A stretch of 64,000 bases of DNA from contig CAYGFH010000001.1 in NCBI GenBank assembly GCA_964349125.1, forward strand, positions 644,801-708,800. The letters are read 5' to 3'. The stretch comes from an uncultured Gammaproteobacteria bacterium. Its GTDB lineage: Bacteria; Patescibacteriota; Microgenomatia; UBA10105; UBA927. The notes beneath the pieces were generated by a model. The model ran no database searches, was not told the origin of the DNA, and saw nothing but the letters and a program-made list of their open reading frames with translations. This document shows, piece by piece, positions 8,404 through 47,943 of the stretch. Every line of letters begins with the position of its first letter. The first letter of the stretch is position 1. Made by a program: the position numbers and the translations under genes.

Positions 8404-8438
8404 CGCGATGACAATACTATTCATTATACATTGACGTG

Positions 8439-8527
8439 CGGAGGAGGTGGGATTTGAACCCACGCGAGCCTTATTCAGGCTCAAGGGTTTAGCAAACCCT
8501 CGCAATGGACCGCTATGCGACTCCTCC
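8439..8527 (-). tRNA. tRNA-Ser (anticodon GCT)
   Basis: The reverse complement reads GGAGGAG-TC-GCAT-AGCGGTCCATTGC-G-AGGGT-TTGCTAA-ACCCT-variable arm-GTGGG-TTCAAAT-CCCAC-CTCCTCC-G. Length 89 nt. Confidence 0.8.
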
Positions 8528-8678: not shown

Positions 8679-8763
8679 GGAGAGGTCGCATAGTGGTCTA
8701 GTGCAGCGGTTTACTAAACCGCCGAATCGCAAGATTCCGCGAGTTCAAATCTCGCCCTCTCCG
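8679..8763 (+). tRNA. tRNA-Ser-like (type II), anticodon apparently ACT (A34)
   Basis: GGAGAGG-TC-GCAT-AGTGGTCTAGTGC-A-GCGGT-TTACTAA-ACCGC-variable arm-GCGAG-TTCAAAT-CTCGC-CCTCTCC-G(CA). Stems are perfect. The loop is identical to the neighbouring tRNA-Ser(GCT) except A instead of G at position 34. Confidence 0.6.
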
Positions 8764-8839
8764 CAACGAATATCACTGTGCCCCACTCTTCAGATTCTGT
8801 ATTGTAAATCACAAATAAAACTCCTACTATATACTGAGT

Positions 8840-22999: not shown

Positions 23000-23027
23000 C
23001 GTTAATCGTTAATCGTTAATCGTTAAT
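23000..23027. repeat. 7-bp tandem repeat (CGTTAAT) x4 immediately 5' of the thiolase start codon
   Basis: CGTTAATCGTTAATCGTTAATCGTTAAT, directly adjacent to the start codon complement at 22997-22999. Confidence 0.8.
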
Positions 23028-23062
23028 CGCGATTTGCGGTTAACGGATAGCGGTTTACGGTA

Positions 23063-27597: not shown

Positions 27598-27975
27598 ATG
27601 ACAAAAGTTCTTGCAGCATCACAACCACTCGGCACAATCGGAGGTGGAAGTTCAGGCGAACTCGGACCTTTTGCAGGGAAAAGTCTTAATAATCCACTTG
27701 ACGCCATAACTGGATACGTTAGTTCCATCGTGGGGATGCTTACGATTTTTGCGAGCATTTGGTTTTTATTTATGTTATTGTTCGCAGGGTATGAGTGGAT
27801 TAGTGCGGGCGGTGATGCCAAAAAAATCGCTTCTGCACGTGATCGCATCACACATGCGTTTGTGGGACTTGTCATTGTCATCGGATCTTGGAGTTTACTC
27901 GCCGTCACAGGACAGTTTTTTGGCTATGATACTTTATTGGGTTCAGGCGCAAATGAATATTTTAAATTAAAATAA
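27598..27975 (+). CDS. VirB2/TrbC-like T4SS pilin paralog 5
   Basis: 125 aa. Loop ISAGGDAKKIASARDRITHAFVGLVIVIG. Starts 2 nt after the previous stop. Confidence 0.5.
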   Translation: MTKVLAASQPLGTIGGGSSGELGPFAGKSLNNPLDAITGYVSSIVGMLTIFASIWFLFMLLFAGYEWISAGGDAKKIASARDRITHAFVGLVIVIGSWSLLAVTGQFFGYDTLLGSGANEYFKLK

Positions 27976-28875: not shown

Positions 28876-29259
28876 ATGAATTTCAAGCGATTTTCTGCAA
28901 ATATCGCGGTTATTGCCACGTCACTGCACCTTGCTCCATACGTTGTTGCTGAAGAACTTAGCACCTACAAAGACACAGATGTCGCTACTCTTAGTTCTCT
29001 CGAGGGATTGTTTAGTAACGCCGTAAGAACCGTGGTCTCTCTCTCCGCGGTAGGACTGTTCCTTATGTTCATCGCGGGCGGGTTTTCATTTTTATTCTCA
29101 GGCGGAGACCAAAAGAAGCTAGAGCAGGCTCGTGGCACCCTTACGAATGCAATTATTGGGCTTGTCGTCATATCATGCGCTTATCTGATCCTTCGAATCA
29201 TTGGAACATTTACGGGCACCTTGGATACCATTACCACATTTAAGATTTTTCAGGAGTAA
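28876..29259 (+). CDS. VirB2/TrbC-like T4SS pilin paralog 8
   Basis: 127 aa. Signal peptide, then loop FSGGDQKKLEQARGTLTNAIIGLVVIS. The upstream TGCTACAAT is -10-like. Confidence 0.5.
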   Translation: MNFKRFSANIAVIATSLHLAPYVVAEELSTYKDTDVATLSSLEGLFSNAVRTVVSLSAVGLFLMFIAGGFSFLFSGGDQKKLEQARGTLTNAIIGLVVISCAYLILRIIGTFTGTLDTITTFKIFQE

Positions 29260-33800: not shown

Positions 33801-34994
33801 CAGTTGATCTGCGGTAAAACCGCTATGTACATCTTGCAAGTCATCAAGAACTTTTCGCAGTCTTCTAGGGTCTCCTTTAAATCCTGGGGTTGAATCCATC
33901 ATGTATTGTACTTTTTTGAGATACTCGTCTAGGTCGCGGTTTCCGCTTTTTTTGGTGGCATCCCACACTTCTGCGCCACTTTTCCCTCCGCCACCAAAGC
34001 CTGACGCTTTCATCATCTCCGTTTTGATCGACGGATCTCCAAGAATGTCAGACACTTCAATTACAAACTTGGTTTGTATCACTTTTTGCTGTGACGTCCG
34101 CCCTGGTCCACCAATTTCTTTTGCATATTGCTTTAGCGCATCTTGTAGAGGGGTGTTTTCAAGTACTTTTTTTGCTAAAAAGGTAGCTGCGTCGTCTGGG
34201 ATATTCATTAGTCTGATTTTTGTTTCTATACCAACGTCGCCTCCCGCCATAACTATCAATATATCGTTAAGACTTTCTTTTATGTCTTCGTGCACATCCT
34301 CTATTGTGTCTTCTTCATTTTTCGCTTTCTTTTTTCCTTCTGGCTTCTGTCTATTTTCCATGACTTTTTCTTCGAGAACCGACGCCATGCGTGTGCGCAA
34401 CATATCTGATGCGTCATAAATTTTTGAAGGAATACTTGCATTGACACCTTTAAGATAGGCGACGCGTTCGTGTATTTGTTTTGCAGCCTTTGCTATCTCA
34501 ATTTGCTCGGATAAGACCATTTCAGAACGCAAAGAATGTACCAACTGAGCTTCTTTTGCAACCAAATACACTGGATCATTTCTAAATGAGGATTCAGCTA
34601 TATCTGCAGCAACAACAGCGACTATATCGGACTTTGGGACGCCATTATCCAATAAGAATTTTACGTTCCTTCCCGTCTCGGGCGTTGCAAGAGACAACTT
34701 GGCGGCCTCTACTTTAACCGAAGTTGCGTTAATTGATGGGGCTGCCTTATTATCTATAACCGCATTAACGACCTCTGTGTGCCACTGTGCGGTTCCTTCT
34801 TTAGCGGTAATTACTGCTTTCGCTAATGGTTTCACCGACTCTTTCATCTTTATGCCGCCAGGTTGAGTTTTTTCCTGTATTGCTACTCTTGGTTTTTCAG
34901 GGCGACGAAGTCTCATGCCCTTTGCCATCATTCCTGCTTCAGCAAAAATTTTTAATGTCTCCATTAGGCCTTGCGCTTGATCTTCTTCTTTCAT
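30897..34994 (-). CDS. giant protein (1365 aa) of unknown function with C-terminal membrane anchor and Gly-rich tail
   Basis: Uninterrupted 4.1-kb ORF. No signal peptide and no recognisable catalytic motif by eye. Single C-terminal TM (YYLAGLAGLGISIGLGA) followed by GGGGSKGSGGGGGGAHH. Confidence 0.5.
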   Translation of the reverse strand: MKEEDQAQGLMETLKIFAEAGMMAKGMRLRRPEKPRVAIQEKTQPGGIKMKESVKPLAKAVITAKEGTAQWHTEVVNAVIDNKAAPSINATSVKVEAAKLSLATPETGRNVKFLLDNGVPKSDIVAVVAADIAESSFRNDPVYLVAKEAQLVHSLRSEMVLSEQIEIAKAAKQIHERVAYLKGVNASIPSKIYDASDMLRTRMASVLEEKVMENRQKPEGKKKAKNEEDTIEDVHEDIKESLNDILIVMAGGDVGIETKIRLMNIPDDAATFLAKKVLENTPLQDALKQYAKEIGGPGRTSQQKVIQTKFVIEVSDILGDPSIKTEMMKASGFGGGGKSGAEVWDATKKSGNRDLDEYLKKVQYMMDSTPGFKGDPRRLRKVLDDLQDVHSGFTADQLNKVGNPQNVIESMADAAETESRRLQEEIYRNRPERGESIMDQYSSMFLASDVRKLTVLYPEWGFNQLYRKYNEAVGFDTRGAVPQQIQRQLQQVVEYYASSKYESDIQELMENPEWRKEIADATKTPIEVTTERFLGPDKKPLTNPDGTPVYRTDLVKMKEHPFFKDRVKRLREISRIIQAKDNIDYSYGVMKMGMDIKKTQVSVLGALGDRGIYDIKADGGFINGTANHILDDLGDIYKRNFERGHKQRIGDKEMDSMRFDLQYVLEANKKEFGEHFTNHFQNRSSIKESLDGKYDYSGLCRKIGIQNETMEFSSDVIKGVVLEAQKLNTVTLREVYTRTKALSPGASDGQNFQGPKYGGESGLSQYLQARQMYEHLIERWDLMDPASKLHMRVMAHQYAEITGVTEATKIMVDQAMQDPSYKLRIAADALDVYEMDPGKRKERIEQMLGFHFGHDLKGYPVKNPPKTIEALTRHQLEEVINFKEGMKYADLVIGGYGYEGASWVCKPKIDMYDLIYGADAWTRGIGVGDYKRILGGEFIGAESAHQREHIAHKLMHGEHGQPGVLHVQGEYLTTRSFQDLIEHNHYETIEKYKAMVNGGYFEGVFSHIKTKEAATISADRPDLAIQYMKITDRITDELLSFEKTGGGPINWHHGPTEIQDGVLTTVCKNMGVNKDKFIKLKKELSNFVTQEPQLKRLTMSDMVDTYIDVQDLESREKFLDNPLEAPGSQYSVNKKHSNADVVERVSGYIGEESGKSEKCGIARVAGDNGSAQASATMVVDLLGVRSFEPFQKALPDLKKNILFTYGGQFAARGVAVVGGSWMNITAMDRADDWLIYGSVFNQLKNSPIRRVTGNVGDHGDLATTINERHGMWEQLQKDLKEAFGTTAPGMNTYMEKEMGLIWEYVGIDGKHHHTDAPWRIYTYYLAGLAGLGISIGLGAKTAKEGYDEGGGGSKGSGGGGGGAHH

Positions 34995-35041: not shown

Positions 35042-35596
35042 TTACTGATACAAGCTGTGGGCTTGTATGTACAGCGATATGTGCTGGGGCACCAGTTGAC
35101 TAATGGGCAATCCTCTTTTCACCCTCTCCCGAATTTTTGTGGAAGAGATATTGCTCCCCACAAGCAATTCATCGGAGATAACATGCATGTTTGGATACAA
35201 TGGCTCATTTGGATATCCATACCGTGGAAATACCAGAAAAGGTAGCTCTTGTAATAGCTGCTGCCACTCCTGCCATAAATGCAGTGTTGGCAGTTGATCA
35301 GAGCCGATGATAAATGAGTAGGTGTGTTCTTTGGGCAAAAAAGGAAGGATGTGAACGGTTTCTCCGTCCAGTTGATTATCTATTTCGATAGTAGAGACCT
35401 GAGTTCTTGGAAGTTCTATAAGTCGGGTCATAGCAAGTCTATCTTCTACAGAAGCAACGGGTTTGGGAGGGCTTTGATGGAAGTTTGGCAAAAACCATAC
35501 TTCATCAGTCTCGGTAAAATCCAGCACCTGCTGGGCAATCATCAAGTGCCCGATGTGAGGGGGGTTAAATGCGCCACCGAGAAGTGCTATCTTCAT
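35042..35596 (-). CDS. nadD: nicotinate-nucleotide adenylyltransferase
   Basis: 184 aa. ALLGGAFNPPHIGHL (the H.GH nucleotidyltransferase motif) and a C-terminal ISST.IR motif. Confidence 0.8.
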   Translation of the reverse strand: MKIALLGGAFNPPHIGHLMIAQQVLDFTETDEVWFLPNFHQSPPKPVASVEDRLAMTRLIELPRTQVSTIEIDNQLDGETVHILPFLPKEHTYSFIIGSDQLPTLHLWQEWQQLLQELPFLVFPRYGYPNEPLYPNMHVISDELLVGSNISSTKIRERVKRGLPISQLVPQHISLYIQAHSLYQ

Positions 35597-37785
35597 GGTT
35601 GTTTCAGTATTCGTTTGGTATATCGCTCTCTCGATGAACGAATCACTTTTTCCCTATTTTGGTTACGAGACTTTGGAAGAGGCAGGGTTTTAGCAGAGAA
35701 CGGCTGGCTCGTATGATTGTCTATGGATAATTTCATTATCATCTCATAATTCCCCAACGCTACCAACTCACTCTCCGCGTATTTGTCACCAAATTCGCGC
35801 ACCAGGCTTCGGGCGTCTGCGGCGCCGACGCTGAAAGACATAATTGAACCCGCATTACCAAAAATTGCTTTTTGGACATCCTCATCGATTTGTCCTATGT
35901 ACTGGTTAGCAAGCGTTAGATCAAGCCGATATTTTCGTGCTTCCGATAAAATTTTAATAAACGATGTTGTTGCGAAATTCTGAAACTCGTCGACATAGAG
36001 ATAAAAGTCTCTGCGTTCAGTTTCTGCTAAGTACACGCGGTTCATGGCTGCAAGCTGAAATTTAGTGATTATCATAGCCCCCAATAAGGCGCTGCTATCC
36101 TCTCCTAGTTTTCCTTGCGACAGATTTACCAGCACAATTTTACCCTGATTCATGACATCTTCAAGATCTACTGTGGATGCACTGCTTCCCACGATATTTC
36201 TTATAGTCTGAGACGATAAGAATTGTCCCACCTTGTTGAGAATTGGAGACACGGCTTCCGAACGCATTTGTGGACTCATTTTGCCAAACTCGTTTACCCA
36301 GAAATTCTTGAGCACCTGATCGTTCATCTTTTCCACCACTTTAGCTCTATATGTTTCGTTGGTTAACAGCTCCGGGACCTGCAAGAGCGTACTACCCGGG
36401 ACGTTTGTGAGGGTGAGGATTGTGTTACGAAGGATATATTCAAGTCTGGGCCCCCAGCTTAAATGATAGAGTTTATAGAAAATAGAGACTATGCCCGAAG
36501 ATACAAGCTCTTTGTACGCGGGGTTTCTAATTTCAAGCGGATTCAAATGAAAAGGGTATTCTAAGTCTGATGGATCCAAATACACCACATCATTGATTCT
36601 ATGTGAGGGAACATAATCTAGCAAAATATCACAGAGATCACCATGCGGATCAACCACTGCGACGCCTTCGCCATTTTTCATATCATTGATAGCCATATTG
36701 GCAATCATTGTGGATTTTCCTGTTCCTGTTTTTCCAATTATGTACATATGTTTTCGCCTATCATCTTTTTTCACGCCGAACGTACACAGCTTGTTTTTGT
36801 ATTCGGTTCGACCAAAAAAGTTAATTTGTTTCTTCTCCTCTTCATTTTCCGTTGCAATTGGCAGATTTTCCGGTGCCTCCCCCGTTAATTGCGATCCCCA
36901 TGAGATATTTTTAATCATAGAAAGCGTGAGCCCTGGCGGGTGCCATAATGATGCAAGCTCAGAGGCGTTTAGTATTTGGTTTCTTGGCAGTAGATCTCCA
37001 CTCCTCGTAATCATCGCTTTTTCTAGGCGTTTTTTGTTCCAGAATGCGGGTTCTGTGAGCTGTAAGGAATTTCCTCCACCCAATGTATAGACGCCAAACG
37101 TCCCACCCAAAGAGTGAAGCAATTCTGTCGCACGATGCTCGCTGGCCGCTACGGTAGCAATTCTGACTGCTGCCGTAAATCCAACCTGTGCGATTTTTGT
37201 TTCTATGAGCCTTGCGTGTGGATGAGCTTTCATCCGACCGGGAGTCGGAGAGCTCACATCGGGAATTCCACGGGCTACCACTGCCGCTGCGGTATGCTGC
37301 CAACCGTGCCCGGCAGGAGAAATCCAGACCTGTACAGCCGCCGCTTCCCCTACCGGCAATTTCGCCATCTGTCCCAAAACGCTTGCAAGAACATCCAGCT
37401 CTTTTACCTCTTTATATGTTTTGAGCGGGTAATAAAATGAGTTCGATAGCGTCAGGTGAGCGGCGGCATGTGGAAGAGTAAAAAAATGCGGAGCATAATC
37501 AGCAGACTGAGAAAGCAGCACTTTCGGGTACTGCGCCGTGATCTGACTTTCAACATAGGATTGGGAGAGCGATGGCATGCCAATAAAAAAATGCAGCCGC
37601 GAGTTCACGGATACTAATTCAAGGCTATAAAACTTTGGCGCATGTCGAGGCCCAAAAAGCTTGGCGAAAAATCCCCCATGCCCTCCTGTTGCACCAAGCG
37701 CGGCGTACACCTGTTCCATTGCGGCTGGTGTTTCCTCACTTTCTCTGGAATTTTTCACCTCCAGCAGTACAAACGAAGACTCCAT
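35593..37785 (-). CDS. VirD4/TraG-like type IV coupling-protein ATPase with atypical soluble N-terminal domain
   Basis: 730 aa. Walker A YIIGKTGTGKST, VVDPHGD, Walker B LYVDEFQNF and a TLANQYIGQID motif in the C-terminal ~400 aa. The N-terminal ~330 aa have no TM helices and no recognised motif. Confidence 0.6.
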   Translation of the reverse strand: MESSFVLLEVKNSRESEETPAAMEQVYAALGATGGHGGFFAKLFGPRHAPKFYSLELVSVNSRLHFFIGMPSLSQSYVESQITAQYPKVLLSQSADYAPHFFTLPHAAAHLTLSNSFYYPLKTYKEVKELDVLASVLGQMAKLPVGEAAAVQVWISPAGHGWQHTAAAVVARGIPDVSSPTPGRMKAHPHARLIETKIAQVGFTAAVRIATVAASEHRATELLHSLGGTFGVYTLGGGNSLQLTEPAFWNKKRLEKAMITRSGDLLPRNQILNASELASLWHPPGLTLSMIKNISWGSQLTGEAPENLPIATENEEEKKQINFFGRTEYKNKLCTFGVKKDDRRKHMYIIGKTGTGKSTMIANMAINDMKNGEGVAVVDPHGDLCDILLDYVPSHRINDVVYLDPSDLEYPFHLNPLEIRNPAYKELVSSGIVSIFYKLYHLSWGPRLEYILRNTILTLTNVPGSTLLQVPELLTNETYRAKVVEKMNDQVLKNFWVNEFGKMSPQMRSEAVSPILNKVGQFLSSQTIRNIVGSSASTVDLEDVMNQGKIVLVNLSQGKLGEDSSALLGAMIITKFQLAAMNRVYLAETERRDFYLYVDEFQNFATTSFIKILSEARKYRLDLTLANQYIGQIDEDVQKAIFGNAGSIMSFSVGAADARSLVREFGDKYAESELVALGNYEMIMKLSIDNHTSQPFSAKTLPLPKSRNQNREKVIRSSRERYTKRILKQP

Positions 37786-37953: not shown

Positions 37954-39324
37954 ATGGATCAGCATCCTGTCCCACAAAATGTCACCACATTTCAGTTCCG
38001 GCTTATCGGAGACATGACCATTAAGCAATTCGGGCACCTCGCGGGCGGCGCCATCCTTGCCTACATTTCGTACAAACTCCCGCTGCCGTTCTTTTTTTCT
38101 TGGCCACTTACCATTATCTTTGCTCTCGGCGGCATTGGATTTGCGTTTGTTCCCATCGAAGAACGACCGATGGACGTTTGGGTGCTGTCTTTTTTGAAAA
38201 ATGTATATAGTCCAACTATATACGTGTGGGAGAGGTCGCCAAGCGTAATCACACCTGTGGTTTCACGGGTACAACCAGTGCACCCTAGTGCCCCTGTTAT
38301 CGCACCGCGTCAACAGCCATCGCCCCCCGCAGTCAGACCTCCGTTGCCGCAGGGGCAAATGGCAGCGCAAGTGCACCCGACCCAACCTGTTGCACAGAAA
38401 TCAGCTGCAAGCGTTGTAAATACCATGTATGCCGCGAAACTCGCCACAGGACAACAGTACACCTCACAGGGACAATTGCCTCAACAGCAAGCGCCTGGAA
38501 TGTTTGACTGGCTATCATCACTCTTTTGGCCAAAGACACGGATACAGATCCCTCAGCCCACACCCCAACAGGCCCCTCATATGGCAACACCTTCTGTGGT
38601 GGGTAATCATCTTGATATGTCCACTCCCCCGGCTGTTGCAAAACAGCCTATCAACACGCCTCCACGAGATTCTGAAGAGAAAAAAGAAAAACTGGATGAA
38701 AAACTCTCTGTACTTAAGCACGAACTGGAAGACCACTCCATTTCTCAGGCGCGAATTTTGGAACTTCAAAAGCAACTAACGGAAGTGCTGATGCAAAAAG
38801 ATATAATGGCCGCCGAAATGCAGGCCATGCAAAAACAACTAAACACGGTGGCTGCTCCCCAATCAGCTTTGCCAGTACGGCCAACGATCCCCTCGGCACA
38901 ACAACAACAGGTACCCCAGCCCACGCCACAACAGAAGCAACCGACAGTAAAGATTATTACGCCCGAAGGGGCCGTACGAGCGGGGCTTCCACGACTGACG
39001 ACATTCCCCAACGTGGTAACAGGCATTACAAAGGACAGCGATAACAATCTTCTTCCTGGTGTGCTTGTTACTGTAAAGGATAAGGATGGAGTCCCTGTGC
39101 GCGCTCTCAAAACAAACAGGCTTGGTCAGTTTGCCGCATCGACTCCGCTATCAAATGGTGTGTACTTTGTAGAGATAGAGGATCCAAGACAACGATATAC
39201 CTTTGACCGGGTGCAAATAACACTCAACGGGTCCATTGTCCCGGCATTGGAAATTATTACAAAGAGTCAAAAGCAGATATCACGGGATAAACTGGCAAAA
39301 GAATTATTTGGAAACACAGCATAA
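37954..39324 (+). CDS. PrgI/VirB3-like membrane protein with long Pro/Gln-rich linker, coiled coil and C-terminal beta domain
   Basis: 456 aa. The N-terminus FQFRLIGDMTIKQFGHLAGGAILAYISYKLPLPFFFSWPLTIIFALGGIGFAFVPIEERPMDVWVLSFL resembles the PrgI/VirB3 family (two TM). This is followed by ~200 aa of P/Q-rich low complexity, a coiled coil, and a C-terminal region with a carboxypeptidase-regulatory-like beta pattern (LPGVLVTVKDKDGVPV). Confidence 0.4.
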   Translation: MDQHPVPQNVTTFQFRLIGDMTIKQFGHLAGGAILAYISYKLPLPFFFSWPLTIIFALGGIGFAFVPIEERPMDVWVLSFLKNVYSPTIYVWERSPSVITPVVSRVQPVHPSAPVIAPRQQPSPPAVRPPLPQGQMAAQVHPTQPVAQKSAASVVNTMYAAKLATGQQYTSQGQLPQQQAPGMFDWLSSLFWPKTRIQIPQPTPQQAPHMATPSVVGNHLDMSTPPAVAKQPINTPPRDSEEKKEKLDEKLSVLKHELEDHSISQARILELQKQLTEVLMQKDIMAAEMQAMQKQLNTVAAPQSALPVRPTIPSAQQQQVPQPTPQQKQPTVKIITPEGAVRAGLPRLTTFPNVVTGITKDSDNNLLPGVLVTVKDKDGVPVRALKTNRLGQFAASTPLSNGVYFVEIEDPRQRYTFDRVQITLNGSIVPALEIITKSQKQISRDKLAKELFGNTA

Positions 39325-39325
39325 T

Positions 39326-39985
39326 ATGACAGACGCAATCGTCCCTATCAAATCCACCACACAGGTTTTCACAGAGGTGGAAGCCATCGAACAAAATATT
39401 CTTATTTTTGTCGACGGTTCATGCTCGTTGGTTATTTCTGCATCAGCTGTTAATTTTGGTCTGTTGTCTGAGCGTGAACAAGACGCAATTATATCATCAT
39501 ATGCCGGACTGCTAAACTCTCTGTCTTTTCCGATTGAATTACTTATTCGCACACAGCACAAAGATGTTACTGCATACTTGCATCTGTTGGAAGACCAGGA
39601 GAGAAAACAGACAAATCCAAAACTCGCAAAAAGCATTCATGATTATCGAATTTTTGTGGCTGCAACGGTAAAAGAAAAGGATGTTTTGGATAAAAAGTTT
39701 TATATTGTTGTCCCTTTTTCGAGTCTTGAGCTCGGAGCATCGCCCAGCGTGTTTTTTGGTACCAAAAAGCGGGGCTTGCCATATAAAAAGCAATATATTA
39801 TCGAAAAGGCGCTTTCGGCCCTCAATCCAAAGCGGGATCACGTTATTCGATTGCTAAACAAACTTGGCCTTCATGCGCATCAGCTTACTAATGAGCAATT
39901 AGTAAAACTCCTCTTTACTACGTATAACGCCGGTGTGCCCACTCCTGATGACGAAACAATACATAAGGCACTTCACTCAACATAG
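39326..39985 (+). CDS. VirB4 N-terminal-domain-like protein (probable 5' portion of a split virB4)
   Basis: 219 aa. IFVDGSCSLVISASAVNFGLLSEREQDAIISSYAGLLNSLSFPIELLIRTQ resembles the CagE/TrbE/VirB4 N-terminal family block. It ends at a TAG that is in-frame with the downstream VirB4 ATPase ORF (6-nt gap). Confidence 0.45.
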   Translation: MTDAIVPIKSTTQVFTEVEAIEQNILIFVDGSCSLVISASAVNFGLLSEREQDAIISSYAGLLNSLSFPIELLIRTQHKDVTAYLHLLEDQERKQTNPKLAKSIHDYRIFVAATVKEKDVLDKKFYIVVPFSSLELGASPSVFFGTKKRGLPYKKQYIIEKALSALNPKRDHVIRLLNKLGLHAHQLTNEQLVKLLFTTYNAGVPTPDDETIHKALHST

Positions 39986-39991
39986 AACAAT

Positions 39992-41926
39992 ATGACATCT
40001 TTTTTTCAAAAAATTCTTGGTCAACAGATACCCACACAGGTAAGTGCGCCGGTCGTGCATTCAACTGATCCGATTAGCGTTTGTGATCTCGTTGCCCCTC
40101 CTTCCATCGAAGTGGATTTTGATATGCTAAAAATTGGAGGATATTACTATAGAACATTATTTATTGCAGGGTACCCTCGTTTTGTCAGCGCAAACTGGCT
40201 TGAGCCGCTTATTTCATTCAACCACACACTGGATATTTCCATGTATATATATCCCACAAGAAGCGAAGAGGTGCTTGAAAATCTCAAGCGTAAGGTTGGT
40301 GAAATGGAAGCAACCATACAGTCGGATATGAAAAGAGGCCGAGTTATTGAACCATCAATTCAAGTGGCATTAGAAGACGCGCTGGCGCTTCAACAGGAGC
40401 TCGCTAAGGGCGCTCAGCGATTCTTTCAATTTGGATTGTATGTCACCATACCGGCAAGAGACATAGAAGACTTAAATAAAGCGAGCAAACAAGTTGAGGC
40501 AACGCTATCATCACTGCTCATTGTGACAAAACGGGCAACTTTGCAAATGGATGAGGGTTTTAAGACTACCCTTCCCATGGGTCAGGATAGAATTGTTGTG
40601 ACAAGAAACATGGACACAACATCACTCGCCACCACATTTCCGTTTACCACATCTGAACTCACCGCAAATGAAGGAATTCTCTACGGCATCAATCAACACA
40701 ATGACAGTCTTGTTATTTTTGACCGCTTTACATTGGAGAACGCCAATACAGTGGTGTTCGGAAAGTCAGGCGCCGGAAAATCGTTTTTAGTGAAGCTCGA
40801 GATTCTTCGAAGTCTTATGTTTGATACTGAGGTAATTGTCATTGATCCTGAAAATGAATATGAAACACTCACACATGCGCTGGGTGGCGAGTATATCCGG
40901 TTTCATTTTGGAGCAACCACAAAAGTGAATCCTTTTGACTTAGCACTCTTGCATCAGAAGGGCGCGATACAGGAAGATAGTGAGCTAAATCAAAAAATTT
41001 TATCGCTTCATGGGTTTTTCCGTGTTGTCATGGGCAAACTAAACGCTATGGAAGACGCGCTGCTTGATCGGGCGTTAATCCTGACATATAAAATGAAGGG
41101 AATTACGCCTGACCCGGAAACACAGTCAAAAGAACCACCGCTCATGGAGGATTTATATAAAACGCTGGTTGGCATGGAAGACACTGTAGCGAGAGGTTTA
41201 GCTGATCGTATCGAAAAATTTGTAAAGGGAAGTTTGGTTGGTATATTTGACCATCAAACTAATTTTGAAATCAGAAATCAATTAACCGTATTTTCAATTC
41301 GAGATCTTGAAGATGAACTGAGACCAATAGCTATGTATCTCATTCTGGATTTTATCTGGACAAAGGTGCGCAGAAATATCAAAAGACGCATTTTGATAGT
41401 TGATGAGGCATGGTATATGATGAAGTATCCTGACTCTGCCGCTTTTTTAAACTCTATTGCTAAGAGAGCCAGAAAATATTATCTCGGACTGACAACTATC
41501 ACGCAGGACGTTGAGGATTTCATGTCCGTTGATCTTGGAAAAACAATTATTCAAAACAGCTCGCTGCAGATTTTACTCAAACAATCAACGGCAGCGATAG
41601 ACAGAATTGCAGACGTGTTTTTTCTCTCTGAAGGCGAGCGCCACTTTTTACTGTCTGCAGGTGTTGGAGAAGGACTTTTCTTCGCGGGAAGCGCGCATGC
41701 CGCAATTAGAGTGATCGCATCTCCTCAGGAAACTGCACTTATCACGACAAAACCGCAGGATCTTCAGGCAAAAGCAGACGCCGCGACGTCTCCCCCTGTT
41801 ACCAAGCCAGCGGCTATGTCAGTCGAGGTTATCTCTCCCGCTCAACCTGTACAAACGGATGTTCACCCGCTTGGAACAGCAAATCGACCTATATTCACCA
41901 CAGAATCTCTGCCAGAAAAACCATAA
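39992..41926 (+). CDS. virB4: VirB4/TrbE-family type IV secretion ATPase (ATPase portion)
   Basis: 644 aa. Walker A VVFGKSGAGKSF, VIVIDPENEY and Walker B ILIVDEAWYMM, plus the upstream GGYYYRTLFIAGYPRFV...LDISMYIYP block typical of VirB4. About 180 aa shorter at the N-terminus than typical VirB4. Confidence 0.8.
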   Translation: MTSFFQKILGQQIPTQVSAPVVHSTDPISVCDLVAPPSIEVDFDMLKIGGYYYRTLFIAGYPRFVSANWLEPLISFNHTLDISMYIYPTRSEEVLENLKRKVGEMEATIQSDMKRGRVIEPSIQVALEDALALQQELAKGAQRFFQFGLYVTIPARDIEDLNKASKQVEATLSSLLIVTKRATLQMDEGFKTTLPMGQDRIVVTRNMDTTSLATTFPFTTSELTANEGILYGINQHNDSLVIFDRFTLENANTVVFGKSGAGKSFLVKLEILRSLMFDTEVIVIDPENEYETLTHALGGEYIRFHFGATTKVNPFDLALLHQKGAIQEDSELNQKILSLHGFFRVVMGKLNAMEDALLDRALILTYKMKGITPDPETQSKEPPLMEDLYKTLVGMEDTVARGLADRIEKFVKGSLVGIFDHQTNFEIRNQLTVFSIRDLEDELRPIAMYLILDFIWTKVRRNIKRRILIVDEAWYMMKYPDSAAFLNSIAKRARKYYLGLTTITQDVEDFMSVDLGKTIIQNSSLQILLKQSTAAIDRIADVFFLSEGERHFLLSAGVGEGLFFAGSAHAAIRVIASPQETALITTKPQDLQAKADAATSPPVTKPAAMSVEVISPAQPVQTDVHPLGTANRPIFTTESLPEKP

Positions 41927-41929: not shown

Positions 41930-44242
41930 ATGGATGATGATAAAAAAAAGATAACCTTAAAAGAATACATTGACTCTGCACAGATCGCTTCGGGTGTAGA
42001 AAAGTTCGACGTATCAGGATTTTTATCGGGGCTGGATGCATACGGAGCGATGCCAGAAGGTGTTTCTGGAATTGTGGCCAGCCTATACACCTCCGCTCCG
42101 GATCGTCGTGCCAGTCTCATAAAACAGCTATATGCAGAGCTTCAGGCGGCGCCGGGATCATCAGAAGCGCCGAACCTCCCGCAACTATCAACCTCCGAAG
42201 AAGTTCAATCCGCGCTTCCTGTTGCAGCCGTTTCAGAGAGAAGGAGACAAGCGCACATAGATACGGGTGCATATGTCATACATCAGCATGACATGCGAAG
42301 CTCTGAGCTGAAGTCTGTTGAAAAAAACATACGATGGCGCAGAGAGGTAACACAACAATTTTTTGCAAAGATTCAAAAGAAAAGGCTGTACGAATCAATT
42401 GGTGTTCCAGAATCAGAAGCAAAAAAAGCAATTGAGAAAGCACTGGAAGAGCCAATTTATGAGACGAATCGAAAAAAAATTGAAAAAATCATAGCAGAAC
42501 GCATAAGCAATCACGAGGTTTTTAGGCAAAACAAGGAAGAGTTCCAGGGAATCTTCGAAGAAGTTGCGTCAACAGCAACAGTATCCTATGCCCCTCTTTC
42601 AGACGAATTGACAAGAACAGCGGTGGGGGCCGTGCTCGAAAACAGGACGCTTGAGGACGTTCGCCCAGTATTAAATACATTTGCTTCAGTGTCGCAGCAA
42701 GACGGGTATGCGTCACCGTTGGAGCTTAGTGCTGCAGTCAAAAAAGCAAAGATAGTTGCAAGCGTCGCCGCGGGTAAACCCAACGATCTAAAGATAGATT
42801 CAGCTGCGGCACTGAGTTTTAGCACGAGTATTCGGTCGATTCAACAGTCACCAGAGCACAAAAAAAGGGTGGTTGAAAAAGTTGCGGTTGATGACTACGG
42901 TCGATCGTTGGTTGAGAGCGGAGAGGTGGATGAGTTTATTCGGAGAAGCGAAAAATACTCAGCACATTCGCTTAAAAACAAAGTTACCGGATATGTTGCT
43001 CCGGCGTATTCTCCGGACACCGATGCGATTGAATACATTGCCGCAGAAATTCGGCACAACCCAACAGGGCTAGCGACCGCTGAGGGCTTATATATGGCAA
43101 AGGCGCACGCCAGCACATCTCATCCCACGCACTTTGAATTTCATCTCCCTGATTTTTCTTGGTTTATTCGTTCTGGACAAAAACAACCAGGGCTAACCGT
43201 GGCGGGAAAGACAATTACTGGCGGATTAGCAAGAGAGCTGGGAACACAGGCATTACTTAAGATGGGATTTGGTGCAACATCTAAGATTGTGCTTGTCGGA
43301 GCGCCTGTAATTGGATGGGCAATCCTGCTTTGGACCACATTTTCGGGAACAATTAAAAATGTGGCAAATTCGACAGTCGGAAAACTGTTAAACGGCGGAC
43401 TTGGATCTCTCCGTGCAGCAAGTGGAGCCTTTGGCGGTTTTGTTCAAAATGCACTACATACCAAATATGAAGATCCAGCCGCAGTAAATGCCACGAGCCT
43501 TGCGGTGTTTGCGGCCGTTGCTCCAATCATCTTGACCATGGGACTTGTCTTTCAAACAATGGCTACGCATCGCGCACAGTTTTTGCCTATTAGCTCTGGT
43601 ATTGCTCCAGGAGGCCCCCCCATTGACTGCACGCAAGAACCGGATAAGAGTGGGCCTGCGTGCAACCTTTCAAAATGCGAGGTTAAAAAGCCCGGTGATT
43701 GCCAGTGGCCGTTAGAAAAGACCTCTGGTGCGTGTATTATAGAAGGACCCTTCGTAGGGACGCACAGCTCGTGTGGTCTTTCAGGAGTCGATTTTATTTC
43801 CCGAGACGCAAACCAGGCCGGGCTTTTCGGTGCCAAGGTGTTTACTCCTTATGCTGGGACGGTCGAGGCGTCCGTATTTGGCTACGATGATTACAGTGGC
43901 AAGGCGGGTAGTCAAGATGGTGGGACATATGGAAATCATGTTATTGTAAAAACAGAGGATGGTGGAAGACTCATGTTTGCACATCTACGCAACATCCAAA
44001 CGGTTAACTCTGGTGATTCCGTCGATTCAGGGACGGTGGTTGGCTTTGTTGATAGCACGGGATACTCTCTTGGGGTACATTTGCACTATGAGGATCTGGG
44101 CGCATCAAGAACATGTCCGAGAAGCGGAGCTGATATAAATAAATATACACCGTTTCCTGTGCCTGCTTGCGAAGGGTTCGCAGACTGCGACGCAAAACTC
44201 AGAGCAGAGGGTCACGCCGCATGCTTATCAGAAATGCCATGA
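41930..44242 (+). CDS. large membrane-associated M23 (LytM-type) peptidase, likely cell-wall hydrolase of the secretion system
   Basis: 770 aa. The C-terminal M23 domain (GTYGNHVIVKTEDGGRLMFAHL...GVHLHYE) follows a central hydrophobic region with several TM helices and a long charged, helical N-terminal region. Confidence 0.7.
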   Translation: MDDDKKKITLKEYIDSAQIASGVEKFDVSGFLSGLDAYGAMPEGVSGIVASLYTSAPDRRASLIKQLYAELQAAPGSSEAPNLPQLSTSEEVQSALPVAAVSERRRQAHIDTGAYVIHQHDMRSSELKSVEKNIRWRREVTQQFFAKIQKKRLYESIGVPESEAKKAIEKALEEPIYETNRKKIEKIIAERISNHEVFRQNKEEFQGIFEEVASTATVSYAPLSDELTRTAVGAVLENRTLEDVRPVLNTFASVSQQDGYASPLELSAAVKKAKIVASVAAGKPNDLKIDSAAALSFSTSIRSIQQSPEHKKRVVEKVAVDDYGRSLVESGEVDEFIRRSEKYSAHSLKNKVTGYVAPAYSPDTDAIEYIAAEIRHNPTGLATAEGLYMAKAHASTSHPTHFEFHLPDFSWFIRSGQKQPGLTVAGKTITGGLARELGTQALLKMGFGATSKIVLVGAPVIGWAILLWTTFSGTIKNVANSTVGKLLNGGLGSLRAASGAFGGFVQNALHTKYEDPAAVNATSLAVFAAVAPIILTMGLVFQTMATHRAQFLPISSGIAPGGPPIDCTQEPDKSGPACNLSKCEVKKPGDCQWPLEKTSGACIIEGPFVGTHSSCGLSGVDFISRDANQAGLFGAKVFTPYAGTVEASVFGYDDYSGKAGSQDGGTYGNHVIVKTEDGGRLMFAHLRNIQTVNSGDSVDSGTVVGFVDSTGYSLGVHLHYEDLGASRTCPRSGADINKYTPFPVPACEGFADCDAKLRAEGHAACLSEMP

Positions 44243-45227: not shown

Positions 45228-45252
45228 GTGCGGAATTTATGTTATCCGCACA
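45228..45252. terminator. 7-bp stem hairpin between convergent genes (GTGCGGA-atttatgttat-TCCGCAC)
   Basis: Inverted repeat seen directly. It overlaps the dnaN stop codon. No clear U-tract. Confidence 0.25.
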
Positions 45253-46340
45253 GGCATAATGATATGGAGATACGTTTCATCGTTTAACAGCTTAAATACT
45301 CCTGGATTTAGAGAGCCGGTCATTTCAAATAGAAGTACTTCTTCCTGAATTGTGGAAAGAAAATCCAACAGATATTTACTGTTAAATGCCATTTCCCCTC
45401 CTTCTCCCTCGACCTTTGCCTCAACCACAATCTGATCTTCCCCTACCTGCGGAGTGTTAGCGCTTACCACCACCTGCTGTTCTTGAATGTGCAGTCGTAT
45501 TATGTTCGCGCTGTCCCGTGCAAAAATACTGGCAGACCTGACCGCCCGAAGCAGGCTTTCCCTGTCAAACTGGACTCTCGTGTTATATTTTTGTGGGATA
45601 ATTCTGTTGTAATTGGGGTACTCTCCATCAATAAGGCGCGTTCGAATTTCAATATCGCCTATTGCAAATAACAATTGATTGTCTTTCTGCCTGGAAAGTA
45701 GAATTGTCTCGGTTTCTTTTTCTTCTGCGGCTATCTTCAGCACTTCTGCAATTGCTCTCGACGGGACCAAGAGATCAAGTCCTTGGGTAGACTCGATTGC
45801 CTGTTTTTTCACAGATAGTCGATATCCGTCCGTTGCCGCAAACACCATTTCTGTGCCGTTTTCGACAATTCTGACGCCTGTCAGAACGGGTCTTCCTTCA
45901 TCTGTTGCCGCACTGAAAACAACCCTGTTAAGATTTTTTATTACCTGTGACTTTTCCATCTGAATTGGCTGCTTCAATGCTTCCTGTGGGATGAGCGGAT
46001 ATTCAGATGCAGAAACACCGGGGATGGTTGCGGTATACCCTGCACACTGAATCTGAAGCGCTCCGTCTACAACAGATAACACGATGGTGTCTTGTGGGAG
46101 AGACGATACGTATTCGCATATTAAGCGTGAGGGAACACAGATTCCGCCTTCTTTATTCACTTTTGCTCCAACAAGCAGCGTCTCCGTTGTTTCCAGATTG
46201 GTTGCTGTTATCTTTAGTCTTCCTGCCTCCGTTGTTAACAACACATGCTGTATAATTGGTAATTGTGGTTTAGAAGGGACTATGCGGCCCGCTCTTATGA
46301 GCGCTCGCAGTAAATTCACTTGTAATACTTGTAGGTCCAT
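45237..46340 (-). CDS. dnaN: DNA polymerase III beta subunit (sliding clamp)
   Basis: 367 aa. Three-domain clamp pattern with N-terminal MDLQVLQVNLLRAL and a C-terminal ...LNPGVFKL...MPVRI. Confidence 0.85.
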   Translation of the reverse strand: MDLQVLQVNLLRALIRAGRIVPSKPQLPIIQHVLLTTEAGRLKITATNLETTETLLVGAKVNKEGGICVPSRLICEYVSSLPQDTIVLSVVDGALQIQCAGYTATIPGVSASEYPLIPQEALKQPIQMEKSQVIKNLNRVVFSAATDEGRPVLTGVRIVENGTEMVFAATDGYRLSVKKQAIESTQGLDLLVPSRAIAEVLKIAAEEKETETILLSRQKDNQLLFAIGDIEIRTRLIDGEYPNYNRIIPQKYNTRVQFDRESLLRAVRSASIFARDSANIIRLHIQEQQVVVSANTPQVGEDQIVVEAKVEGEGGEMAFNSKYLLDFLSTIQEEVLLFEMTGSLNPGVFKLLNDETYLHIIMPVRIT

Positions 46341-46383
46341 ATGTGTTTAGAATTATTACTATAGTATTAGTAATAGAAAGCGG

Positions 46384-46530
46384 TGTGGAAAAGTGTATGT
46401 CTTTTTCATGTGTAAGTCAACGGATCGCTCTGATCGAACAAGTAGTGTGTTTGATCGGAGAAAACCCTGTGGATCCTAATGTGGATAACTGTGTGGATAA
46501 CCATCATTAAAATGTGAATAAGTGGATAAG
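46384..46530. other. oriC candidate: DnaA-box cluster between dnaN and dnaA
   Basis: TGTGGATAA-type boxes (= TTATCCACA on the minus strand) at 46468-76 (TGTGGATCC), 46480-88, 46492-500, 46513-21 (TGTGAATAA), 46522-30 (GTGGATAAG) and 46384-92 (TGTGGAAAA). All share one orientation. An AT-rich tract sits at 46351-46380. Confidence 0.6.
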
Positions 46531-46539
46531 CAAAACAAA

Positions 46540-47943
46540 CTATACCCACAGCTTGCTTTTTATCCCCGCCACATCCCCTCTCAGTCTTTCGTTTGTGGAT
46601 AATTCTTTGGTTATAGATTCTACACCATGCATCACAGTGGTATGATCACGCCCCCCCAAAAGCCCCCCTATATCACCATGCGTAAGCCCAAGCTCTGTTC
46701 TGCAGAGATACATAAACACTTGCCGTGGCCTCGCGATTGGCCTATCTCTTTTTGGACCCCTTAATGCAGTTGATTTAACCCCAAAATGTATGGCAACCGC
46801 ATCCAGCAAATCTTGCGGAGGCACTCTCTTTTGTGCTTTCTCAGAAGATTTTAACGCAGGTTTAATGCTGAGAAGAGATGCTATTAATTCAGTTGTCACC
46901 TCTGTGTTTTTTGTCGCGGTTTCGGTGATAAGCCTCCGGAGAAAACCCTCAATCGCTCGCGTATCAGATATGTTTGCAGCAATAAGTTGAGCAGATTCCG
47001 ATGACACTGTTAAACCGAGTGCCGCAGATTTGATATTTATAATGGCCACCCGAAGCTCGAAGTCTGGGTTTGCGACATCTACCGTCAACCCGCCCTCAAA
47101 TCTGCTTCGTAGCCTGTCTTCCAACTTGGAAATCTCCGTGGGCGGCCTATCAGAGATGAGAATTATTTGTCCACCCTCTCTGTGAACAGCGTTGAACGTA
47201 TGGAAAAACTCCTCCTGTGCAGTTAATTTACCCGCAATGAACTGCACATCATCAACAAGAAGAAGTTGAGCGTTCCTGTACTTTTGCTTAAATTGTCTGG
47301 CGGTCTTTGTTTGGATTGCTTCGACTATTTCGTTTAAGAACTCCTCCCCCATACAATACACAACCTTTGTATTTGGACGACGCTGCAAAATACTGTTTGC
47401 GACGGCATGCATCAGGTGTGTCTTCCCTACCCCCACACCACCGTAGATAAAGAGAGGATTATACGCGGTTCCAGGGGATCTTGCGACTGCGGTGGCGGCA
47501 GCATACGCCATTTGGTTGGTTGTTGAAACCGCAAAGTTCTCAAACGTTGCATCAGGCCTGATGTGAAGCCTTCGGGAAAGCGATGTTAGATCAGACTCTT
47601 TTTGTGCGACGGTTGTTGCAAAAAGAGGCCCCGCCTCTTTGTCAGTAAGCGTTTCTTTTTTAGGAACGACCGAAAATACCATGCTGATATTTTCGTGAGT
47701 GTGATGGTCTAATATGCTCTTAACCAGCGAATAGTATCGCGTCTCAACAAGAGTTCTCATGAGGGGGCTGGTAAAGCTTATAGAGGCAACATTGTCAGAT
47801 AGAGACAAGAGTTTTGAGCTGGCAAAATGCGTTTGAAATGTCGCCTTTGATACCGACAATTCAATCTCAGCCAAAACAGTTTTCCAAAGTTTTTCAGTAT
47901 CCATGGTGTATATAGAGGCAGTCCGTCGCTCTTGTAGAGGCAA
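46540..47943 (-). CDS. dnaA: chromosomal replication initiator protein DnaA
   Basis: 467 aa. AAA+ Walker A GGVGVGKTHLMHA, Walker B LLLVDDVQF, sensor motifs and C-terminal DNA-binding domain (...GGRDHTTVMHG...). Confidence 0.9.
   Translation of the reverse strand: MPLQERRTASIYTMDTEKLWKTVLAEIELSVSKATFQTHFASSKLLSLSDNVASISFTSPLMRTLVETRYYSLVKSILDHHTHENISMVFSVVPKKETLTDKEAGPLFATTVAQKESDLTSLSRRLHIRPDATFENFAVSTTNQMAYAAATAVARSPGTAYNPLFIYGGVGVGKTHLMHAVANSILQRRPNTKVVYCMGEEFLNEIVEAIQTKTARQFKQKYRNAQLLLVDDVQFIAGKLTAQEEFFHTFNAVHREGGQIILISDRPPTEISKLEDRLRSRFEGGLTVDVANPDFELRVAIINIKSAALGLTVSSESAQLIAANISDTRAIEGFLRRLITETATKNTEVTTELIASLLSIKPALKSSEKAQKRVPPQDLLDAVAIHFGVKSTALRGPKRDRPIARPRQVFMYLCRTELGLTHGDIGGLLGGRDHTTVMHGVESITKELSTNERLRGDVAGIKSKLWV

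What the first reader, a model, noticed from the sequence alone, without database searches (positions are those of the whole stretch)
39326..41926. VirB4 ATPase apparently split by a single in-frame TAG between its N-terminal domain and the ATPase core
ORF 39326-39985 (219 aa) has the hallmark block of the VirB4/TrbE N-terminal domain (DGS...NFGLLSEREQDAI...LLNSLSFPIELLIRTQ). It ends at TAG 39983-39985. The Walker-containing VirB4 ORF starts 6 nt later at 39992 in the same reading frame (both coordinates are 2 mod 3). That ORF is about 180 aa shorter at the N-terminus than typical VirB4. Joining them across the TAG would give about 865 aa, a normal VirB4 length. TAG is used as an ordinary stop elsewhere in this window (ends of the radical SAM gene at 51021-23 and the membrane-protein gene at 61945-47). 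The options are therefore a recent nonsense mutation, a naturally two-subunit VirB4, a sequencing error, or programmed readthrough.
Basis: partly seen in the sequence, partly recalled or inferred. Interest (0 to 1): 0.6.

Follow-up and report, generated by a model that had tools for sequence, protein, structure and literature searches.

The report
Natural two-gene VirB4 (TrsD-like plus ATPase)

Summary
The sequence observation is correct. ORF1 (39326-39985, 219 aa, TAG stop) and ORF2 (39992-41926, 644 aa) share a frame, 6 nt apart, and together are collinear with full-length VirB4 profiles.

It is not a lesion. Thousands of ORF1 homologues are stand-alone proteins of about 219 aa (Pfam PF26593, "TraC-like"). 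The closest ORF2 homologues are all about 570-690 aa.

In 78 junctions, each from a different species (77 related loci plus the window):
- ORF1 ends in TAA (43), TGA (28) or TAG (7).
- ORF2 is in a different frame in 68; the commonest junction is an ATGA overlap (20).
- One locus is fused.

The three closest relatives (93, 88 and 85% identity) use TGA, with ORF2 out of frame. Both ORFs are under strong purifying selection. TAG is an ordinary stop in the window (10 of 42 long ORFs).

Gene order (PrgI/VirB3-like, ORF1, VirB4, cell-wall hydrolase) matches trsC-trsD-trsE in staphylococcal pSK41. A 2025 paper already reports TrsD, a remote homologue of the VirB4 N-terminus, as the most abundant Patescibacteria T4SS component, usually beside virB4 and near dnaA.

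Natural fused forms exist (L016, Amesbacteria). A model of one superposes on full-length R388 TrwK/VirB4.

Verdict: real, ordinary, already known.

The parts
37954..39324 (+). PrgI/VirB3-like membrane protein (456 aa), first gene of the tightly packed operon. Its TAA stop lies 1 nt before the ORF1 ATG.
   Evidence: Pfam PrgI E 1.9e-7, above cut-off, at residues 5-87, plus a weak C-terminal CarboxypepD_reg-like match. Called as a PrgI gene in an identical public contig.
39326..39985 (+). ORF1: stand-alone TrsD-like / 'TraC-like domain' protein (219 aa), equivalent to the first ~200 residues of a full-length VirB4.
   Evidence: NCBIfam NF045975 positions 104-285 of 894 (E 2.8e-7) and TrsD/TraD NF041427 (E 1.7e-3, below cut-off). 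The identical product in L082/L083 carries PF26593 TraC-like. There are 2121 homologues and the best 120 are 193-241 aa. pN is 0.11-0.17 against pS 0.8-0.9.
39983..39985 (+). TAG stop codon of ORF1, an ordinary terminator.
   Evidence: TAG ends 10 of 42 long ORFs in the window. The ORF1 stop is TAA/TGA/TAG in 43/28/7 of the 78 junctions. No tRNA with a CUA anticodon lies in the window.
39986..39991 (+). 6-nt spacer AACAAT between ORF1 and ORF2. It is not conserved.
   Evidence: Spacing in orthologues ranges from a 4-nt overlap to more than 100 nt.
39992..41926 (+). ORF2: VirB4-like ATPase (644 aa) lacking the first N-terminal module. Walker A GKSGAGKS is at 40760-40783 and Walker B ILIVDE at 41390-41407.
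   Evidence: NF045971 CD1110 family, 394.7 bits against a cut-off of 325, profile positions 185-730 of 752. Pfam P-loop_TraG, AAA_10 and DUF87. 27% identity, E 1e-47, collinear with pSK41 TrsE from residue 46. Motif positions.
41930..44242 (+). 770-aa protein with a C-terminal M23 peptidase domain, a likely cell-wall hydrolase partner (VirB1-like role). It starts 3 nt after ORF2.
   Evidence: Pfam Peptidase_M23 E 7.5e-12. The same gene order occurs in relatives.
35593..37785 (-). VirD4/T4CP-like ATPase (730 aa), divergently transcribed from the operon.
   Evidence: Pfam DUF87, TrwB_AAD_bind (E 4.8e-7) and TraG-D_C. NCBIfam CD1115 and TraD models match weakly.
27598..27975 (+). VirB2-like T4SS pilin gene (125 aa).
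   Evidence: Pfam T4SS_pilin E 1.2e-6, above cut-off.
28876..29259 (+). Second VirB2-like T4SS pilin gene (127 aa).
   Evidence: Pfam T4SS_pilin E 4.6e-10.

Best explanation
ORF1 and ORF2 are two separate, co-translated genes of the chromosomal type IV secretion system of a Microgenomates/Gottesmanbacteria-type Patescibacterium.

ORF1 is the TrsD-like ('TraC-like domain') protein and corresponds to the first ~200 residues of a full-length VirB4. ORF2 is the rest of VirB4: the second half of the N-terminal domain plus the RecA-like ATPase.

Shown here: the split is ancestral and conserved, both genes are under purifying selection, they are collinear with intact VirB4, and they sit in the operon order VirB3-like, TrsD-like, VirB4, hydrolase, with spacers of 1, 6 and 3 nt.

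Inferred:
- The two polypeptides associate non-covalently to rebuild a complete VirB4 protomer.
- ORF1 supplies the membrane-proximal surface that contacts VirB3 and forms the dimer.
- Tight gene packing gives roughly matched production.

The in-frame TAG is simply one of the three possible phases.
For: - **Stand-alone ORF1 homologues:** 2121 in total; the best 120 (66-93% identity) are all 193-241 aa. More distant ones are also stand-alone, and many carry long Q/P/S/T-rich tails that rule out continuation into an ATPase.
- **Short ORF2 homologues:** the best 120 (75-100% identity) are 567-692 aa.
- **Variable junctions:** across 78 species-level junctions (77 related loci plus the window), stops are TAA 43, TGA 28, TAG 7. 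ORF2 is out of frame in 68, and an ATGA overlap occurs in 20.
- **Closest relatives:** L085, L086 and L087 (93, 88 and 85% identity) have TGA stops, spacings of +4, +1 and -4, and ORF2 always out of frame.
- **Selection:** pN is 0.11-0.17 against saturated pS of 0.8-0.9 for ORF1, and similar for ORF2.
- **Collinearity:** the join aligns in one stretch to two VirB4 models. In the alignment of natural fusions with split forms, the break falls in a variable-length linker.
- **Natural fusions:** L016 (821 aa) and an Amesbacteria family of 783-897 aa carrying PF26593 plus P-loop_TraG.
- **Structure:** the AlphaFold model of fused P0152 (pLDDT 79) superposes on full-length R388 TrwK/VirB4 (8rtd_O: TM 0.72/0.71, E 6e-29, 842 columns). 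The C-terminal-domain-only structure 4ag5 gives TMq 0.42.
- **Synteny:** the order matches pSK41 trsC-trsD(227 aa)-trsE(672 aa).
- **Literature:** TrsD is a remote homologue of the VirB4 N-terminus. 2,272 homologues were found in Patescibacteria, 1,664 beside virB4. The homologue is essential in Ca. Southlakia epibionticum, and the clusters lie near dnaA/dnaN (PMC12102498). The window has dnaN and dnaA directly downstream.
Against: - Physical association of ORF1 with ORF2 was not tested. It rests on the natural fusions and on homology to VirB4.
- ORF1 alone gives only weak direct evidence. It scores 18 bits against a cut-off of 200 for the NCBIfam TrsD model. hhalign against pSK41 TrsD gives E 0.0056 with a probability of only 6.5%. 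No PDB sequence hit was found. Its own model has pLDDT 63, and its Foldseek E-values of 0.04-0.1 are not significant, although TrwK/VirB4 chains top the list.
- In a few distant lineages the TrsD-like gene is not next to virB4 (L075, L076), so some independent role is possible.
- No function has been assigned experimentally to TrsD (PMC12102498).
Confidence: 0.88

Rival explanations
1. A recent nonsense mutation turned a sense codon into TAG in a formerly fused VirB4, leaving a pseudogene or a crippled gene.
For: The two ORFs are in frame and only 6 nt apart. Fused VirB4 genes do exist in related Microgenomates.
Against: - All 120 closest ORF1 homologues and all 120 closest ORF2 homologues are split-sized.
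- The nearest relatives, at 93, 88 and 85% identity, are already split, with other stop codons and other frames.
- 76 of the 77 related junctions analysed are split.
- ORF2 has an ATG and an N-terminal segment that align with the orthologues' own starts.
- Both ORFs show strong purifying selection.
Confidence: 0.01
2. A sequencing or assembly error created a false stop codon.
For: The window comes from a metagenome-assembled genome, where single-base errors can occur.
Against: - The junction, and 8-10 kb around it, is base-for-base identical in an ENA contig and in a separate Logan assembly of run ERR3094292. The junction segment is also identical in a third contig. These may share reads, so they test the assembly step, not an independent sample.
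- More decisive: the split is the conserved state in dozens of other species.
Confidence: 0.01
3. Programmed UAG readthrough or recoding produces a fused 866-aa VirB4, either in addition to or instead of the two separate proteins.
For: - The arrangement is in frame with a short spacer that contains no further stop.
- A fused product would probably work, because natural fusions exist and the junction is a variable linker.
- UAG is generally a leakier stop than UAA (established knowledge).
Against: - The in-frame relation occurs in only 10 of 78 junctions, below the one-third expected by chance. One of those 10 is the true fusion L016, and most of the rest use TAA.
- It is absent from the three closest relatives.
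- TAG is a normal stop for 10 of 42 genes in the window.
- No suppressor tRNA lies in the window.
- The stop context and the spacer are not conserved.
Confidence: 0.03
4. ORF1 is an independent accessory factor (TrsD in the strict sense) that descends from a VirB4 N-terminus but no longer acts as part of the VirB4 protomer.
For: - No function is assigned to TrsD (PMC12102498).
- Some distant homologues are not adjacent to virB4 (Gracilibacteria in PMC12102498).
- Many homologues carry long low-complexity tails.
Against: - Fusion and fission have recurred within the same clade, with the same collinear order.
- The fused model has the full-length VirB4 architecture.
- Adjacency is near universal and often involves overlapping stop and start codons.
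- ORF2 alone lacks the module that every canonical VirB4 has.
Confidence: 0.07

Closest known systems
TrsD-VirB4 pairs of the Patescibacteria T4SS (Quinonero-Coronel et al. 2025, Microb Genom, PMC12102498)
   Same: - A small protein remotely homologous to the VirB4 N-terminus is encoded next to a short virB4.
- A PrgI/VirB3-like gene lies alongside and VirB2-like pilin genes lie nearby.
- The cluster is chromosomal and sits beside dnaN/dnaA.
- Every one of these features is present in the window.
   Different: - Nothing essential differs.
- A VirD4/T4CP-like gene is directly adjacent here, which the paper reports for only 148 of 5,713 T4CP homologues.
- The in-frame TAG junction is a lineage-specific accident.
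TrsD/TrsE of staphylococcal pSK41/pGO1, and TraD/TraE of pIP501 (MPF_FATA conjugation systems)
   Same: - The gene order is the same: trsC (VirB3-like), trsD (227 aa), trsE (672 aa VirB4), then membrane protein and hydrolase.
- ORF2 is collinear with TrsE from its first conserved residues (27% identity, E 1e-47).
- The sizes are similar (219/644 aa against 227/672 aa).
   Different: - ORF1 is only a remote relative of TrsD: 18 bits against the NF041427 cut-off of 200, and hhalign E 0.0056.
- The pSK41 system is plasmid-borne and conjugative with a relaxase. The window's system is chromosomal and next to the origin genes.
Full-length VirB4 (R388 TrwK; fused VirB4 of Ca. Amesbacteria, e.g. P0152; CD1110 family)
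   Same: - ORF1 plus ORF2 cover the whole profile in order.
- Fused relatives are 45-48% identical to ORF1 and about 63% identical to ORF2.
- The model of the fused form matches TrwK over its full length.
   Different: Here the polypeptide is divided at the variable linker, inside the classical N-terminal domain, into two gene products.
Pfam PF26593 'TraC-like domain'
   Same: The identical 219-aa product in public contigs is annotated with PF26593. UniRef names close homologues 'TraC-like domain-containing protein'.
   Different: None. This is simply the family the protein belongs to.

Membership tests
VirB4-like conjugal transfer ATPase, CD1110 family (NCBIfam NF045971) | Whole-protein score at or above the curated cut-off of 325 bits | tested here: met
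   ORF2 scores 394.7 bits, E 7.8e-118.
VirB4-like conjugal transfer ATPase, CD1110 family (NCBIfam NF045971) | Walker A and Walker B nucleotide-binding motifs | tested here: met
   GKSGAGKS at ORF2 residues 257-264 and ILIVDE at residues 467-472.
VirB4-like conjugal transfer ATPase, CD1110 family (NCBIfam NF045971) | The N-terminal module (profile positions ~1-185) is present in the same polypeptide | tested here: not met
   ORF2 covers profile positions 185-730 only. ORF1 covers positions 15-117 as a separate protein. The natural fusion P0152 covers positions 3-735.
TrsD/TraD family conjugative transfer protein (NCBIfam NF041427) | Score at or above the curated cut-off of 200 bits | tested here: not met
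   ORF1 scores 18.2 bits, E 1.7e-3, and only residues 11-66 align. hhalign of A1 against pSK41 TrsD gives E 0.0056 and probability 6.5%. ORF1 is a remote homologue, not a member by this model.
TrsD/TraD family conjugative transfer protein (NCBIfam NF041427) | A protein of ~200-230 aa encoded between the VirB3-like gene and a short VirB4 gene | tested here: met
   Window: PrgI-like, ORF1 (219 aa), ORF2. pSK41: trsC, trsD (227 aa), trsE.
TrsD as defined by the CONJScan/MacSyFinder profile used in PMC12102498 | A hit to the T4SS trsD HMM profile | not testable with these tools
   That profile is not in the available libraries. The paper reports 2,272 hits in Patescibacteria, 1,664 beside virB4.
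Pfam PF26593 TraC-like domain | A significant match to the family model | tested here: met
   The precomputed hit is unmarked (E at most 1e-5) on the 219-aa gene of L082 and L083, which is identical to ORF1. The local Pfam copy lacks the model, so a direct scan returned nothing.
Programmed stop-codon readthrough / recoding site | The in-frame arrangement and the stop codon or its context are conserved among orthologues | tested here: not met
   10 of 78 junctions are in frame. Stops are TAA 43, TGA 28, TAG 7, and spacing ranges from -4 to more than +100 nt. The closest relatives are out of frame.
Programmed stop-codon readthrough / recoding site | The downstream ORF lacks its own conserved start | tested here: not met
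   An ATG lies at or near the ORF1 stop in most of the junctions, and N-termini align among the sampled split ORF2 orthologues.
Pseudogene created by a nonsense mutation | Orthologues are intact and the fragments are under relaxed selection | tested here: not met
   Orthologues are split. pN/pS is roughly 0.13-0.2 for both ORFs.

The most novel reading that the evidence does not exclude
In this lineage the accidental in-frame UAG with a stop-free 6-nt spacer might let a small fraction of ribosomes read through. The cell would then make a minor fused VirB4 isoform alongside the two separate subunits. That would be a snapshot of how the repeated fusion and fission seen in Microgenomates VirB4 could begin. 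Nothing here requires it, and no conservation supports it.
Probability: 0.03. Interest if true: 0.3.

Novelty: already known. Interest (0 to 1): 0.1.

Why it matters
It matters mainly for annotation. This gene pair should not be flagged as a pseudogene, frameshift or recoding event. ORF1 should be named a TrsD-like / VirB4 N-terminal module protein instead of 'hypothetical'.

Biologically it is one more instance of the Patescibacteria T4SS, whose TrsD homologue is reported as essential in Ca. Southlakia epibionticum (PMC12102498). Two modest by-products came out of the analysis:
- Split and fused VirB4 forms alternate within Microgenomates.
- The split point is a variable linker, which supports reading TrsD as a detachable VirB4 module.

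Tried and rejected
- **Pfam scans of ORF1 and close homologues** gave nothing significant, because the local copy lacks PF26593.
- **Profile search of A1 against PDB sequences** returned no hits at E up to 10.
- **hhalign of the shallow ORF1 alignment against a single TrsD sequence** was weak.
- **The ORF1-only AlphaFold model** was low-confidence (pLDDT 63). Its Foldseek E-values were not significant, although TrwK/VirB4 chains topped the list. I replaced it with a model of a natural fusion built on a mixed alignment.
- **TAG reassignment** was considered and rejected: all three stop codons are used in the window.
- **A suppressor tRNA** was considered and rejected: none lies in the window.
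- **A missing Shine-Dalgarno motif before ORF2 as a sign of non-initiation** was considered and rejected: almost no gene in the window has one.
- **dN/dS proper** could not be computed because synonymous sites are saturated, so pN and pS are reported instead.
Full report
**Observation.** The coordinates are correct.
- ATG 39326 lies 1 nt after the TAA of the upstream gene and opens a 219-codon ORF ending at TAG 39983-39985.
- After the spacer AACAAT, ATG 39992 opens a 644-codon ORF ending at 41926, in the same frame.
- The ORF listing extends ORF1 upstream to a TTG at 39236. The homologues begin at the ATG (MT..IPI...), so 39326 is the real start.
- TAG is an ordinary stop in this window.
- No tRNA with a CUA anticodon is in the window.

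**What the two ORFs are.**
- ORF2 is a VirB4-like ATPase of the monoderm CD1110 type. It scores 394.7 bits against a cut-off of 325, but it covers only profile positions 185-730 of 752.
- ORF2 carries Walker A GKSGAGKS at residues 257-264 and Walker B ILIVDE at residues 467-472.
- ORF1 matches the N-terminal part of monoderm VirB4 models: NF045975 positions 104-285 of 894 (E 2.8e-7) and CD1110 positions 15-117. It also matches the TrsD/TraD model weakly (E 1.7e-3).
- The conceptual join aligns as one uninterrupted stretch to NF045975 (positions 105-877) and to TIGR00929 VirB4_CagE (positions 19-726 of 792).
- The two ORFs are therefore collinear pieces of one VirB4. However, the break lies inside the classical N-terminal domain, because ORF2 keeps about 250 residues ahead of its P-loop. 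It does not lie at the boundary between the N-terminal domain and the ATPase.

**Is it a lesion?** No.
- ORF1 has 2121 homologues. The best 120 (66-93% identity) are all 193-241 aa. UniRef names them 'TraC-like domain-containing protein', which corresponds to Pfam PF26593.
- The identical 219-aa gene in public contigs carries that Pfam hit.
- The best 120 homologues of ORF2 (75-100% identity) are 567-692 aa.
- A scan of one genome per species returned 80 loci from Gottesmanbacteria, Woesebacteria, Beckwithbacteria and other Microgenomates/Patescibacteria.

I analysed the junctions in those loci by script. In 77 of the 80, the VirB4 gene directly follows ORF1. With the window this gives 78 junctions:
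- The ORF1 stop is TAA in 43, TGA in 28 and TAG in 7.
- ORF2 is in a different frame in 68 and in the same frame in 10.
- The single commonest junction is the 4-nt overlap ATGA (20 loci), the classic signature of two translationally coupled genes.

The three nearest relatives found (93, 88 and 85% identity) have TGA stops and spacings of +4, +1 and -4 nt. All are out of frame.

In the three remaining loci, which are more distant lineages, the picture differs:
- In L076 the VirB4 gene lies several kb downstream.
- In L075 no VirB4 gene lies within the stretch of about 6 kb held downstream of ORF1.
- In L079 the held DNA ends less than 1 kb after ORF1, so adjacency cannot be judged.

Both ORFs are under strong purifying selection. 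For ORF1, pN is 0.11-0.17 against saturated pS of 0.8-0.9, and ORF2 is similar.

The junction and the surrounding 8-10 kb are base-identical in an ENA contig and in a Logan assembly of run ERR3094292. The junction segment is also identical in a third, 2.7-kb ENA contig. This argues against an assembly artefact, although these assemblies may share reads.

The lack of a Shine-Dalgarno motif before ORF2 means nothing here. Almost none of 31 gene starts in the window has one.

**Operon context.**
- The genes are PrgI/VirB3-like (37954-39324), ORF1, ORF2 and a 770-aa protein with an M23 peptidase domain (41930-44242). The spacers are 1, 6 and 3 nt.
- The next gene overlaps by 4 nt in the public gene calls.
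- A VirD4/T4CP-like gene is divergent at 35593-37785.
- Two T4SS pilin genes lie at 27598-27975 and 28876-29259.
- dnaN (45237-46340) and dnaA (46540-47943) follow immediately.

**Natural fusions.**
- One of the 80 loci, L016, has a single 821-aa gene. In it the ORF1-like and ORF2-like parts are joined by a short linker.
- A search with the fused representative P0152 found a family of fused VirB4 proteins (783-897 aa, PF26593 plus P-loop_TraG) in Ca. Amesbacteria and relatives. These are interleaved by similarity with split forms of 573-667 aa.
- In the alignment of fused and split forms, the window's break falls in a variable-length, poorly conserved linker. This linker sits between the conserved ...LF..YN... 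end of the TraC-like module and the conserved ...AP..I.VDF..L.I...RT.F..GYPRFV... start of the ATPase protein.
- An AlphaFold model of P0152 (mean pLDDT 79, N-terminal module mostly 80-90) superposes on full-length TrwK/VirB4 of R388 (8rtd_O: E 5.7e-29, TM 0.72/0.71, 842 columns). The structure of the C-terminal domain alone (4ag5) gives TMq 0.42.
- The ORF1-like module therefore occupies the VirB4 N-terminal position.
- The model of ORF1 alone was poor (pLDDT 63). Its best PDB matches were again TrwK chains, but with non-significant E-values.

**Mechanism.**
- Shown: a conserved two-gene VirB4, a collinear domain order, tight operon packing, and purifying selection.
- Inferred from the natural fusions and from what is known of VirB4: ORF1 binds ORF2 in trans to complete the protomer. 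In VirB4, the N-terminal domains dimerise, embed at the membrane and contact VirB3 and VirB8 (review PMC12857230). ORF1 probably mediates docking to the PrgI/VirB3-like protein encoded just upstream.
- I put about 0.9 on the statement that this is a natural split. I put about 0.75 on the model of assembly in trans.

**Comparison with what is known.**
- Staphylococcal pSK41 has the same order: trsC, trsD (227 aa), trsE (672 aa VirB4), then membrane protein and CHAP hydrolase.
- ORF2 is collinear with TrsE (27% identity, E 1e-47). ORF1 is only remotely similar to TrsD.
- Quinonero-Coronel et al. [quoted passage not shown] They report it as the most abundant T4SS component in Patescibacteria: 2,272 homologues, 1,664 associated with virB4.
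- The same paper notes that the TrsD homologue is listed as essential in Ca. Southlakia epibionticum, that pilin arrays are abundant in Microgenomatia, and that the clusters lie near dnaA/dnaN.
- The window is a textbook example of that description. The finding is therefore already known. The in-frame TAG is an accident of this lineage.

**Rivals.**
- Nonsense mutation: about 0.01.
- Sequencing or assembly error: about 0.01.
- Programmed readthrough: about 0.03.
- ORF1 acting independently of VirB4: about 0.07.

The evidence for and against each is given in the corresponding fields.

Noticed in passing
window 45237-47943 (- strand): dnaN and dnaA lie immediately downstream of the T4SS operon, so the cluster sits beside the probable replication origin. 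PMC12102498 reports the same for Microgenomatia.
   Followed up: partly
window 35593-37785 (- strand): A VirD4/T4CP-like ATPase (DUF87, TrwB_AAD_bind, TraG-D_C) is directly adjacent and divergent to the virB4 operon. It is conserved in relatives L086 and L087. The 2025 survey found only 148 of 5,713 Patescibacteria T4CP homologues near virB4.
   Followed up: partly
window, 31 gene starts sampled (e.g. 16419, 13790, 28876, 34994): Almost no gene has a Shine-Dalgarno-like motif. Several have a TAnAAT-like box right against the ATG (e.g. 'gatacaatATG', 'tagtatagatatATG'), which suggests leaderless or SD-independent initiation.
   Followed up: no
window 22998-23029: A perfect heptamer tandem repeat (ATCGTTA, 4.6 copies) directly abuts the start codon of the minus-strand gene 21821-22999.
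   Followed up: no
window 8679-8764 (+), with 8315-8403, 8438-8527 and 5382-5471 (-): There are four tRNA-Ser genes, three of them clustered. One is called with anticodon ACT (A34), which is unusual for bacteria. Rfam confirms it as a tRNA at 54 bits.
   Followed up: partly
window 30897-34994 (- strand): A 1365-aa ORF with no Pfam match lies between the pilin genes and the T4CP gene. It may be an uncharacterised T4SS component or surface protein.
   Followed up: no
window 37954-39324: The PrgI/VirB3-like protein is 456 aa, far longer than the 91-position PrgI domain. It has a long P/Q-rich middle and a C-terminal CarboxypepD_reg-like beta-sandwich match.
   Followed up: no
related proteins P0428, P0429, P0432, P0438, P0439, P0480, P0482, P0491, P0507: VirB4 homologues of 1158-1215 aa in related Patescibacteria carry intein and LAGLIDADG homing-endonuclease domains (PF14890, PF14528).
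   Followed up: no
related proteins P0122, P0138, P0183 and others (300-715 aa): More distant stand-alone TraC-like/TrsD-like proteins carry C-terminal tails of 100-500 aa rich in Q, P, S, T and N, with no recognisable domain.
   Followed up: no
L016:4174-6636; P0152 and P0391-P0413: Fused TrsD-like plus VirB4 genes occur sporadically (1 of 80 species loci) and as a family in Ca. Amesbacteria. They are interleaved with split forms, which implies repeated gene fusion or fission.
   Followed up: partly
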